In this document: positions 36,407 to 39,400 of the stretch, one piece after another
Layout of the letters: the number at the start of each line of letters is the position of its first letter
Position numbering within the stretch: position 1 is the first letter of the stretch
DNA from: Octopus vulgaris
Taxonomy: Eukaryota
Length of the DNA: 64,000 bases
NCBI GenBank assembly: GCA_951406725.2
Contig: OX597842.1
Coordinates: forward strand, 14,570,001 to 14,634,000
Direction: 5' to 3'
Made by a program: the position numbers

Positions 36407-39400
36407 TTATATATATATATCTACATAATGGTGTTGGCCATTTGTGGTTGTGTGTCTACGTGTCTGTTTATCTATGGATATGTGTATGCAAGTGTATGAA
36501 AATTTACTAGTAATTCGGTCTCTATATCAAGGACGGTATTTATATTTCAATCATTATCATCATCATCATCATCATCATCATCTCTTCTTTATGGATAGTA
36601 ACAACCTTATATTTTCACCTCTACCTCATATAATATTCATCACTATAAATATCACAACTACCACCATCCCTATCACCATAGTTTTCTTTTCCCCCTTCCC
36701 ACTCATCGTCCTCCTATCGTCCTGGGTTCTAATGACATCAAGGAAATCAAAGCTGACACCTTCCGAAATTTGTCCAGGTTAAAATATCCCTAAATTGAAT
36801 CAGTTTTCTTCTTCAGTATTTCATTGACGATGTCTTTCTAAATCTGTTTTATGTGCACATATTGTATTTAGGCTCCGTCACCCGTCCTTCAAAAGAAGAT
36901 ATTTATTGATCGTGAATTTGAGAGTGTGCGTGTGGGTTCATTTCTGAAATATGGGATATATACAAAGCGCAAATTTACTCTGACCACACTACGGATATTA
37001 CATGTATATTTGTATGTGTGTGTGTGTGTGTGTGTGTGAGCAGTGGTGCGTCTGGTTGTGTGCTTGTGTGTTTGTTTGTGTATAGATGCGGGTATTCGAG
37101 TACATCAAAATATATGTGTAATTAGATCTGGGTATCATCTACATTATTGAAATCTCTATCGTCATAGAATATTAATACTTGTTTCAGTTTTTCTTGTCTT
37201 TACCTTTATTTTCTTCTCCTTCATCTTCTTTTTCGTCTTCTTCCCCTCCTACTCCTATACTTGAGCCTCCTCCTCCTTCTACTATTCTTCTTCTTGTTCT
37301 TCGTTTCGTGTGTGTAAAAATTCTCTTTCTTGAGTTCTTCATAAGAGTTTCTCAATCTCAATCATCCGCTGAGTTCTCTTTTCCTCAAAAATCTCTACAA
37401 TTTAATTCGCCTCAATTAGTGCCGTGATAATTATTGACGTCTCCCTCTCCATCCTCATCACCGTCATTATTCTCATCTTCGTTGTTACCTTTCTCAAACA
37501 TAAACATCGTCAACTTTATCGTCGCCCTCGTCATCATCGTTATCATTGATTACCAAAAAGCACCACGGTAGGAATACTCAACCTCCTGGTCATCCTGATC
37601 ATAGATAACAGACACATTACCATCATCGTCATCATCCTCAATATCAGATCCATATTCACCATTTAAATGCTAATCCCCTATCATTATCATAACAATCAGC
37701 ATTAACAACATCACTCTGATCATCATCACCTCAATATCTTCATCAACTTTACCGCCATAGATTTTTACATTCTGGTTCATTCTCATATTAATGACTGTCA
37801 AGACCAGATATTCTACAACTAAATCTATCAGCACAGGTTTCCGACCTCCTCCTCCTCCTCTCTTCCTTCTTCTCCCTCCTTCGACTTATTGTCATCATCA
37901 TCAACATCATTGTCGACAACGTCCTCTGCAACAATCTAATCGTCATCGTGATTAGATGTTCATCCTTTCCTTCCTGTAACTGTTTACCCAAAATTATGTC
38001 ATAAATGTCTCACAAAATTGCTTCTTAACTCAATTTTACTTTCCAGAATCTTGTATAATAATGATATCCAAGTAATAAAACCTGGCACCTTCCAATATTT
38101 ATCCAGTTTAAGATTACTGTAAGTTGAATCAGTTTTCTTCTTTAGTATTTCATTGTCTAAATCTCGCTCAATCTGTAATGTGAACCCATCTTTCGTTTAA
38201 GCTTCCTCAAGCATCCTTCCAAACCAGAGTTTATTGTTTATGAATTGGAGTGAGTGTGGATCTATTTCTTAAATATTGGATATGCGAGTTCACGATACAA
38301 GATGGAACCCATTTATTGCATGCATGAGCATATGTCTTAGTATTTTTACAATTATACTCCATCCGAACTGTTTGTTGTTTGTGAATCACTGATAATGTTG
38401 TGGGGGGCCATTCTTGGTATTTCGGATATATCAGTGTGTGACAATTGAACGGAGACTTTTAGTGCAAGTTGTATCTGTGCATTTCTGTTATATCTTCTGT
38501 AATGGACTGGAATATCTATGTTTCGAATTTCATCAAAATTGCAGATGAGGGTTGTATTAATGACTGTCAAGACCATATTAATGACTGTCAAGACCACATA
38601 TTCTACAGCTAAATCTATCAGCACAGGTTTCCGACCTCCTCCTCCTCCTCTCTTCCTTCTTCTCTCTCCTTCGACTTATTTTCATCATCATCAACATCAT
38701 TGTCGACAACTTCATCTGCAACAATCAAATCGTCATCCTGATTTGATGTTCATCCATTCCTTCATGTAACTGTTTACCCAAAATTATGTCATAAATGTCT
38801 CATAAAATTGCTTCTTAACTCAATTTTATGTTCCAGAGACTTATCTTGGAATGGCATCACAGAAATCAAAGATGACACCTTCCAATATTTGTCCAGTTTA
38901 ACAGAACTGTAAGTTGAATCAGTTTTCTTCTTTAGTATTTCATTGTCTAAATCTCGCTCTATCTGTAATGTGAACCCATCTTTCATTTAAGCTTCCTCAA
39001 GCATCCTTTCAAACCAGAGTATATTGTTTATGAATTTAAGTGAGTGTGGACCTATTTCTTAAATATTGGATATGCGAGTTCACGATACGAGATGGAACTC
39101 ATTTATTGCATGCATGAGCATATGTCTTAGTATTTTTACAATTATACTCCATCCGAACTTTTTGTTGTTTGTGAATCACTGATAATGTTGTGGAGGGCCA
39201 TTCTTTAGATTTTGGATATATCAGTGTGTGACAATTGAAGGGAGACATTTAGTGCAAGTTGTATCTGTGTATCTCTGTTATATCTTCTGTAATGGACTGG
39301 AATATCTATGTTTCGAATTCAATCAAAATTGCAGATGAGGGTTATTTCCCTCTTTTCACACCCCACAAAAATTGTAATTGTGCCACATGTATCCCATACT

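What the first reader, a model, noticed from the sequence alone, without database searches (positions are those of the whole stretch)
37786..39343. Sister exons C1/C2 are ~28% divergent while their introns are ~4% divergent
Hand count: 20 of 72 exon positions differ, 3 of them clearly synonymous. Only about 9 differences occur in the ~215 nt after the donor (38119-38334 vs 38909-39124). Both exons stay in frame and keep the LRR scaffold (L, N, I, F, L). Exons outpacing introns is the reverse of normal. It points to strong diversifying selection, or to intron homogenisation by gene conversion that spares the exon.
Basis: seen in the sequence. Interest (0 to 1): 0.85.

Follow-up and report, generated by a model that had tools for sequence, protein, structure and literature searches.

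The report
Divergent patch in twin LRR exons
Two recently duplicated copies of a 72-base leucine-rich-repeat exon differ about eight times more in a 47-base patch than in their surrounding introns, probably because the patch was exchanged with another repeat rather than mutated on the spot.

Summary
In an ungapped 770-nt alignment (37784-38553 vs 38574-39343), exons C1 (38047-38118) and C2 (38837-38908) differ at 20 of 72 positions. The rest differs at 35 of 698 (5.0%), Fisher p = 8e-9.

The anomaly is not the whole exon. It is a 47-nt patch, 38039-38085, with 18 of 47 differences. It covers the last 8 intron bases and the first 39 exon bases. Everything else, including the exon's 3' third, fits a uniform 5.1%.

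Synonymous sites are as divergent as replacement sites: pS 0.30, pN 0.29, dN/dS 0.95. That is about six times the intron value, and P(at least 4 synonymous changes at the intron rate) is about 0.004. In the exon, C1 and C2 are no closer to each other than to old paralogues whose introns are 21-32% diverged.

Unit similarity runs right to the duplication breakpoints and the flank divergence is even. I therefore favour a recent 769-nt tandem duplication followed by templated replacement of the patch over old units with homogenised introns. No donor lies in the window, so this is unproven. The kind is known; this is one more example.

The parts
37787..38555 (+). Copy 1 of a head-to-tail tandem duplication (769 nt): 260 nt of upstream intron, exon C1, 437 nt of downstream intron
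   Evidence: Ungapped alignment to copy 2; boundaries read
38556..39345 (+). Copy 2 (790 nt = 769 nt plus a 21-nt internal tandem duplicate at its 5' end, 38556-38576)
   Evidence: the same 20-mer begins at 37787, 38556 and 38577; no similarity beyond either end
38047..38118 (+). Exon C1, 72 nt, one 24-residue leucine-rich repeat (peptide ILYNNDIQVIKPGTFQYLSSLRL from nt 2-70); flanking introns phase 2
   Evidence: Pfam LRR_8 E = 0.0018, 18.4 bits, below the 27-bit cut-off
38837..38908 (+). Exon C2, 72 nt, one leucine-rich repeat (peptide DLSWNGITEIKDDTFQYLSSLTE)
   Evidence: Pfam LRR_8 E = 0.0062, 16.7 bits, below cut-off
38039..38085 (+). High-divergence patch in copy 1 (18 of 47 differ from copy 2): last 8 nt of the intron plus exon nt 1-39, encoding the beta-strand and ascending-loop x positions
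   Evidence: Maximum-likelihood change-point and scan statistic
38829..38875 (+). The same patch in copy 2
   Evidence: Offset 790 from the patch in copy 1
35753..35824 (+). Older paralogous LRR exon (unit 34909-36178 is about 70% identical to 37204-38469)
36718..36789 (+). Dead exon relic: frame still open, but no AG acceptor and a mutated donor; homology begins at exon nt 13 (36730-36959)
22947..23018 (+). LRR exon of the same series; others at 26109-26180 and 26466-26537; frameshifted pseudo-exon at 18313-18383
50251..56809 (+). Four LRR exons (50251, 52389, 54545, 56738; 72 nt each) in four tandem units of about 2146 nt; the first three exons are identical
55192..55339 (+). Mosaic patch in the third 2146-nt unit: 11 differences from units 1 and 2, which are otherwise almost identical to it; 6 of the 11 are shared with unit 4

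Best explanation
The window holds part of a large animal-type gene whose leucine-rich repeats are each encoded by one 72-nt exon with phase-2 introns. A 769-nt piece (exon plus parts of both introns) was recently duplicated head to tail, about 5% neutral divergence ago. A short patch of 47 to about 77 nt was then overwritten, either afterwards or during the same event. The patch spans the acceptor and the exon half that encodes the ligand-facing x positions (xLxxNxIxxIKxx). It was overwritten in one or both copies by templated exchange with other LRR exons: short-tract non-allelic gene conversion or template switching. The exchange was anchored in the blocks conserved among all paralogous units on either side of the patch. 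The patch therefore carries an old genealogy, as deep as the older paralogues, while the flanks carry the young one. Purifying selection keeps the LRR scaffold. The x positions are free to vary or are under diversifying selection. Shown: the duplication, the sharp patch, the raised synonymous divergence, the star-like exon distances, and mosaicism elsewhere in the locus. Inferred: the templated exchange itself, its direction, and its donor.
For: (1) The patch is sharply bounded: 18 of 47 in 38039-38085 against 37 of 721 elsewhere, and the remainder is Poisson-like; 0 of 20,000 permutations reach 18. (2) Synonymous sites are hit as hard as replacement sites: Sd 4 over 13.3 sites and Nd 16 over 55.7 sites, pS 0.30, pN 0.29, against intron 0.050; P = 0.003-0.005 at the intron rate. 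These values lie inside the range for old paralogue pairs of the same subfamily (pS 0.13-0.40, pN 0.25-0.35). (3) Exon distances are star-like. C1-C2 is 0.278, against 0.26-0.35 to E35753 and P36718. Over exon nt 13-72, C2 is closer to relic P36718 (12 of 60 differ) than to C1 (14 of 60). In the flanks C1-C2 is 0.04-0.05, against 0.21-0.32 to those paralogues. (4) Similarity runs to the breakpoints and is even, so the units themselves are young. (5) The patch is bracketed by blocks shared among paralogues. A 15-nt block just upstream matches at 13-14 of 15 in five other units. The 14 nt after the patch (ACCTTCCAATATTT) are identical in 6 of the 10 aligned exons. (6) The patch includes two adjacent intron differences at -8 and -7 of the acceptor. 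(7) Block-wise mosaicism is demonstrable elsewhere in the same gene. Three 2146-nt units are identical over more than 1.5 kb, but one carries 11 differences within about 150 nt, 6 of them shared with the fourth unit.
Against: No donor was found. In the window, the best non-sister matches to either patch are other LRR exons at 67-87% identity; the best is C2 38850-38901 vs 36731-36782, 45 of 52. At 10 of the 20 differing exon sites, one copy carries a state seen in none of the 8 other aligned exons (6 in C1, 4 in C2). That fits new mutations as well as an unseen donor. Outgroup polarisation is symmetric (majority backs C1 at 8 sites, C2 at 9, ties at 3), so no single recipient is evident. Exchange between exons only 65-85% alike is mechanistically demanding. 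The synonymous test rests on 4 differences. All 10 replacements fall at x positions, which selection alone would also produce. The rest of the genome, transcripts and orthologues could not be examined.
Confidence: 0.45

Rival explanations
1. In-place diversifying selection: after the recent duplication, new point mutations at ligand-facing positions of one or both exons were fixed rapidly by positive selection.
For: All 10 replaced residues lie at x positions and every scaffold residue is kept (p = 0.007). Differences cluster in the beta-strand and loop half (16 of 20 in exon nt 1-39). Ten of 20 variant states are unique in the window. No donor was found. A younger pair, E50251/E56738, shows 4 replacement and 0 synonymous differences. 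Site-model positive selection at concave LRR positions is reported for brown-algal 72-bp LRR exons (PMC11378527, passages read).
Against: dN/dS is 0.95, not above 1. There are 4 synonymous differences where 0.7 are expected at the intron rate (P 0.003-0.005), and 3 of them are in scaffold codons. Exon distance already equals that to old paralogues. Five codons differ at 2-3 positions. Two intron bases next to the exon belong to the patch.
Confidence: 0.17
2. Old neighbouring repeat units whose introns were homogenised by gene conversion, while conversions across the exon were removed by selection (the L/M opsin model; the reader's second option).
For: Intron divergence is below both dS and dN, and exon and intron trees disagree. 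This is the pattern reported for gibbon L/M opsin genes (PMC3213168, passages read). Conversion-like mosaics occur in the same locus.
Against: Similarity extends to the last bases of both unit ends, with no old-divergence edges (3 of the first 100 and 5 of the last 100 positions differ). Upstream (5.3%) and downstream (4.8%) flanks are equally diverged, and mismatches are evenly spread. Two independent tracts of the same age, each stopping at the patch, would be needed. Homogenisation would also have had to start between units about 25-30% diverged. The exon's 3' third is not spared (4 of 33).
Confidence: 0.15
3. False duplication: the two units are two haplotypes of one locus laid in tandem by the assembler. 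The patch would then be an extreme allelic polymorphism, not a paralogue difference.
For: Five per cent is a plausible heterozygosity for some invertebrates (recalled, not tested). The window also holds three 2146-nt units with no differences over more than 1.5 kb, which could reflect assembly problems. Read depth could not be checked.
Against: The window has no N or gap. The junction is a clean head-to-tail join with a further 21-nt tandem duplicate. The locus is full of graded tandem and segmental copies at 70-97% identity, which are plainly real.
Confidence: 0.08

Closest known systems
Primate L/M opsin tandem genes: introns homogenised by gene conversion, central exons kept different (PMC3213168; abstract and result/discussion passages read)
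   Same: Exons are more divergent than introns between tandem paralogues. Intron divergence is below both synonymous and non-synonymous divergence. dN is not above dS. Exon and intron trees disagree.
   Different: There the duplication is old and many conversion tracts lie in the introns. Here the unit similarity is even and reaches the breakpoints, pointing to a young duplication with a later patch exchange. The opsin case involves whole genes; this one involves two exons of one gene and a 47-nt patch.
[quoted passage not shown]
   Same: Short exon segments are distinctly different between paralogues whose introns stay highly similar. The fold-defining residues are kept. The authors also argue that accumulated point mutations explain it poorly.
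   Different: A different protein fold, and separate genes. The mechanism was left unknown there as well. Here the segment coincides with the ligand-facing half of an LRR and begins in the intron.
Brown-algal ROCO genes with one LRR per 72-bp exon, exon shuffling and positive selection at concave-face sites (PMC11378527; passages read; its Table S3 not seen)
   Same: 72-nt exons each encode one LRR. All are in the same phase, so exons can be duplicated or swapped in frame. Variability is concentrated at x positions of the concave face.
   Different: There nt 3-71 encode the 23 residues; here nt 2-70 do. No ROC-COR or any non-LRR exon was seen in this window. The composition (about 36% G+C) and the mariner and retroelement remnants suggest an animal genome. 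Membership is not claimed.
Gonadotropin receptor/LGR-type LRR exon structure (known to me only as cited in PMC11378527: similar-sized LRR exons, all introns phase 2)
   Same: One LRR per exon of about 72 nt, with phase-2 introns.
   Different: No transmembrane or other diagnostic exon lies in the window, and the spliced model was not searched. This is a resemblance of gene structure only.
[quoted passage not shown]
   Same: The same test logic: exon differences compared with flanking intron differences. That study found rapidly evolving exons enriched in duplicated sequence.
   Different: That study interprets the excess as rapid coding evolution. Here synonymous sites share the excess.

Membership tests
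Leucine-rich repeat (Pfam LRR_8 type, 24-residue 'typical' repeat) | Scaffold LxxLxxLxLxxNxLxxLxxxxFxx present in frame | tested here: met
   Both exons read L..L..[L].L..N.I..I....F across the junction codon CT|A. The consensus itself is recalled.
Leucine-rich repeat (Pfam LRR_8 type, 24-residue 'typical' repeat) | Profile match above the curated cut-off | tested here: not met
   Searched exon by exon only. All 9 exon peptides hit LRR_8 (E 1.5e-4 to 1e-2; C1 18.4 bits, C2 16.7 bits), but all fall below the 27-bit cut-off, as expected for 23 residues. The joined model was left out.
Positive (diversifying) selection on LRR surface residues | dN/dS above 1 | tested here: not met
   dN/dS = 0.95 over the whole exon and 1.01 over codons 1-13
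Positive (diversifying) selection on LRR surface residues | Synonymous divergence equal to the neutral (intron) divergence | tested here: not met
   pS 0.30 against intron 0.050; P 0.003-0.005
Positive (diversifying) selection on LRR surface residues | Replacements confined to solvent-exposed x positions | tested here: met
   10 of 10 replaced codons lie among the 16 x codons of 23, p = 0.007
Positive (diversifying) selection on LRR surface residues | Site or branch models with orthologues; polymorphism against divergence | not testable with these tools
   No orthologous or population sequence was available
Intron homogenisation with protected exon (L/M opsin model) | Intron divergence below both dS and dN; exon and intron trees disagree | tested here: met
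Intron homogenisation with protected exon (L/M opsin model) | Old duplication: unconverted edges or block-wise uneven flank divergence | tested here: not met
   Edges are as similar as the interior. Dispersion p = 0.73; upstream vs downstream p = 0.86.
Short-tract ectopic conversion / exon segment switch | Sharply bounded patch of old divergence inside young flanks, ends in conserved anchors | tested here: met
   Patch 38039-38085; anchors visible in the alignment
Short-tract ectopic conversion / exon segment switch | Identifiable donor | tested here: inconclusive
   None in the 64-kb window (best 45 of 52). The rest of the genome could not be searched.
Mutually exclusive tandem exons | Equal length, same phase, tandem, homologous | tested here: met
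   Both 72 nt, 1+69+2, 790 nt apart
Mutually exclusive tandem exons | Competing intronic RNA pairings, or transcripts with one exon only | tested here: inconclusive
   No inverted repeat of 14 nt or more in 37000-39800. No transcript data. All the gene's LRR exons share this format, so the format alone says little.

The most novel reading that the evidence does not exclude
The gene is a germline LRR receptor that renews its binding surface by cassette exchange. The ligand-facing half of single-LRR exons, bracketed by conserved anchors at the acceptor and at the TFxxL block, would be copied between repeats (and perhaps between paralogous genes). That would be an evolutionary-time counterpart of lamprey VLR copy-choice assembly or of snake-toxin ASSET, and C1/C2 would be a freshly caught case. 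A second bold reading is that the two units are alleles, and the patch is a balanced, MHC-like hyperpolymorphism.
Probability: 0.2. Interest if true: 0.6.

Novelty: new member of a known kind. Interest (0 to 1): 0.4.

Why it matters
The pair shows a young tandem exon duplicate whose binding-surface half already differs as much as repeats that separated long ago. If the patch was imported, this multi-exon LRR gene can change specificity in one step while keeping the fold. That mechanism is often proposed for LRR immune-type receptors and toxin genes but is rarely caught with both young flanks intact. It is also a caution for scans: an exon-versus-intron excess alone does not demonstrate positive selection, and the synonymous sites have to be checked.

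Tried and rejected
- **Donor search in the window.** I ran blastn-short (word size 7) with both 86-nt patch regions. Only the known LRR exons came up, at 87% identity or less. Short hits such as 4668-4640 (23 of 29) are chance level.
- **Outgroup polarisation.** With 8 paralogous exons it gave no direction: 8 sites back C1, 9 back C2, 3 are ties.
- **Relaxed constraint or a dying exon.** Rejected. A neutral sequence cannot outrun its introns eightfold, and both exons keep their splice sites, frame and scaffold.
- **A functional RNA or tRNA in the conserved introns.** Rfam gave 0 matches at gathering thresholds over the whole window, and there were 0 tRNAs.
- **Docking/selector RNA pairing for mutually exclusive splicing.** There are no inverted repeats of 14 nt or more in 37000-39800. 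This is a weak test.
- **Higher-order two-exon duplication (E35753+P36718 matching C1+C2).** The distances do not single out those pairings.
- **Transition/transversion difference.** Exon 7:13 against non-exon 16:19, which is uninformative.
- **One literature search failed on a formatting limit** and was not repeated.
- **Not checked.** The genome-contig collection holds only bacteria and archaea, so it was not spent on an animal-type gene. The phage, plasmid and E. coli collections are irrelevant here. Supplementary tables of the cited papers were not seen.

Full report
**What the region is**

The window is eukaryotic, about 36% G+C, and has no N. It carries microsatellites and transposon remnants: two zf-RVT matches just under the Pfam cut-off, and a Mos1-type HTH_48 domain above it.

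The + strand carries a series of 72-nt exons. Each has an AG acceptor after a pyrimidine tract and a GTAAGT-like donor. Each is open as 1+69+2 bases, so the introns are phase 2 and the split codon is always CT|N, which reads Leu.
- Intact exons start at 22947, 26109, 26466, 35753, 38047 (C1), 38837 (C2), 50251, 52389, 54545 and 56738.
- 18313 is a frameshifted copy.
- 36718 is a relic without splice sites.

I searched the exon peptides one at a time. All 9 tested hit Pfam LRR_8 (E 1.5e-4 to 1e-2), and all fall below the 27-bit cut-off, as a single 23-residue repeat must.

The locus is a patchwork of segmental and tandem copies at 70-97% identity. Rfam and tRNA scans of the whole window found nothing.

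**Checking the observation**

The two units align without a gap: 37784-38553 against 38574-39343. The mismatch counts are as follows:

| Region | Mismatches | Percent |
|---|---|---|
| Whole alignment | 55 of 770 | 7.1 |
| Exon | 20 of 72 | 27.8 |
| Upstream | 14 of 263 | 5.3 |
| Downstream | 21 of 435 | 4.8 |
| All non-exon | 35 of 698 | 5.0 |

Fisher's test of exon against non-exon gives p = 8e-9.

No random placement of the 55 mismatches put 18 in any 47-nt window (0 of 20,000).

As a control I compared all 66 pairs of the 12 exons and pseudo-exons, each with 250-nt flanks. Thirteen pairs had flanks under 20% diverged. Only C1/C2 showed an exon excess; the other twelve had p >= 0.10.

**Refinement**

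A maximum-likelihood change-point search places the anomaly at 38039-38085 (18 of 47, 38%). The remaining 721 positions carry 37 mismatches (5.1%), spread as a Poisson process (dispersion p = 0.73). Upstream and downstream flanks do not differ (p = 0.86).

The patch begins 8 nt inside the intron, with two adjacent differences at -8 and -7. It ends after exon nt 39. The exon's last 33 nt have 4 differences, three of them in the last two codons.

In protein terms the ten replacements are I/D, Y/S, N/W, D/G, Q/T, V/E, P/D, G/D, R/T and L/E. All lie at x positions of the repeat, and all scaffold residues are kept. The chance that ten replaced codons avoid the seven scaffold codons is 0.007. That the x positions of the LxxLxLxxN segment face the concave binding surface is established LRR structural knowledge, which I recall rather than tested.

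**Selection or genealogy?**

Nei-Gojobori counts give 4 synonymous differences over 13.3 sites and 16 replacement differences over 55.7 sites. That is pS 0.30, pN 0.29, dS 0.38, dN 0.36 and dN/dS 0.95. For codons 1-13 alone the ratio is 1.01.

At the intron rate only 0.7 synonymous differences are expected, and P(>=4) is 0.003-0.005. Three of the four lie in scaffold codons (Leu, Ile, Leu), which are not targets of adaptive change.

The exon values fall within the range seen between the old paralogues of this subfamily (pS 0.13-0.40, pN 0.25-0.35). The distances make the same point:

| Comparison | Exon | Flanks |
|---|---|---|
| C1 vs C2 | 0.278 | 0.04-0.05 |
| C1 or C2 vs E35753 or relic P36718 | 0.26-0.35 | 0.21-0.32 |

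Over exon nt 13-72, C2 is nearer the relic (12 of 60 differ) than its supposed sister C1 (14 of 60).

The exon patch therefore has an old genealogy and the flanks a young one.

**Which way round?**

If old units had had their introns homogenised, I would expect unconverted edges, uneven flank ages, or two tracts of different age. Instead:
- Similarity runs to the breakpoints: 3 of the first 100 and 5 of the last 100 aligned positions differ.
- The join is a clean head-to-tail junction. Copy 1 is 37787-38555. Copy 2 is 38556-39345 and begins with a further 21-nt tandem duplicate.
- The older paralogue at 34909-36178 is collinear with 37204-38469, across the left breakpoint. The duplicated piece is therefore a sub-segment of an older unit.

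These points favour one recent duplication of the whole piece, exon included, followed by replacement of the patch.

The patch is bracketed by sequence shared among paralogous units: a 15-nt block before it, and the 14 nt after it that are identical in 6 of the 10 aligned exons. These blocks are plausible anchors for short-tract conversion or template switching.

The same gene shows block-wise mosaicism elsewhere. Three of the four 2146-nt units are identical over more than 1.5 kb. Yet the third has 11 differences within 55192-55339, and 6 of them are shared with the fourth unit.

**Results against this reading**

- No donor lies in the window; the best match is 45 of 52.
- Ten of the twenty variant states are unique among the ten aligned exons.
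- Polarisation is symmetric (8, 9 and 3).
- Exchange between sequences only 65-85% alike is demanding.
- The synonymous argument rests on four differences.
- In-place diversifying selection is therefore not excluded, perhaps acting on multi-base mutations. Nor are the opsin-type model or a false (haplotype) duplication.

I put templated patch exchange at about 0.45, in-place selection at 0.17, intron homogenisation at 0.15 and assembly or allelic origin at 0.08.

**Comparison with what is known**

- The pattern [quoted passage not shown] is described for gibbon L/M opsin genes. There it is explained by conversion plus selection against conversion in the exons (PMC3213168, passages read).
- Short exon segments that differ between paralogues with near-identical introns are described as ASSET in snake three-finger toxin genes, with the mechanism left open (PMC2474615, passages read).
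- Exon-against-flanking-intron tests find fast exons enriched in primate segmental duplications (PMC3906575, abstract read).
- One LRR per 72-bp exon, exon shuffling and positively selected concave-face sites are described for brown-algal ROCO genes. The same paper cites phase-2 LRR exons in gonadotropin receptors (PMC11378527, passages read).

The present case is a further example of these known kinds, not a new kind. I found no paper on this gene, but the organism is unknown and my three completed literature searches were about the phenomenon, so this is no claim of absence.

**What stayed unchecked**

- The rest of the genome, and so the donor.
- Read depth.
- Transcripts.
- Orthologues.
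- The joined gene model.
- The supplementary tables of the cited papers.

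Noticed in passing
49319-57911: Four tandem units of about 2146 nt, each with one LRR exon. Exons 50251, 52389 and 54545 and their 250-nt flanks are identical. Unit 4 differs by 2-8% downstream of the exon but by 0 of 300 columns just upstream. Its exon has 4 replacement and 0 synonymous differences (N/R, P/A, E/K).
   Followed up: partly
55192-55339: A patch of 11 differences in unit 3 of that array, against otherwise almost identical units 1 and 2. Six of the 11 are shared with unit 4. It looks like a conversion tract or a retained old segment.
   Followed up: partly
36718-36789: LRR exon relic. The reading frame is still open, but the acceptor and first 12 nt are replaced and the donor is mutated. 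Its core is 45 of 52 identical to exon C2.
   Followed up: partly
18313-18383: LRR exon copy with a 1-nt deletion (frameshift), although its flanks are 95% identical to the unit of the intact exon at 26466.
   Followed up: no
46609-46987 and 48596-48914: Copies of the intron sequence that follows exons C1/C2 (74-78% identity). Their homology starts at or just after the exon's last bases, with no LRR exon in front. Either the exon was lost or these are intron-only copies.
   Followed up: no
13094-34794: Nested segmental repeats of about 3-6 kb at 83-97% identity. They carry the exons at 22947, 26109 and 26466, the pseudo-exon at 18313, and long Ser/Leu/Phe-like low-complexity tracts.
   Followed up: no
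10-2652: A 2.6-kb trinucleotide array (consensus ATA, 878 copies, 91% matches). G+C is about 12% over the first 2 kb.
   Followed up: partly
6229-7326 (-), 7627-8076 (-), 59761-60111 (+): Transposon remnants. Two zf-RVT matches (E about 1e-5, just under the cut-off), and a Mos1-type HTH_48 domain (E 8.6e-9, above the cut-off) in a broken mariner-like frame.
   Followed up: partly
36139-36466 and 40490-40723: Long (TA)n/(TG)n microsatellites flank the 35-39 kb exon group.
   Followed up: no
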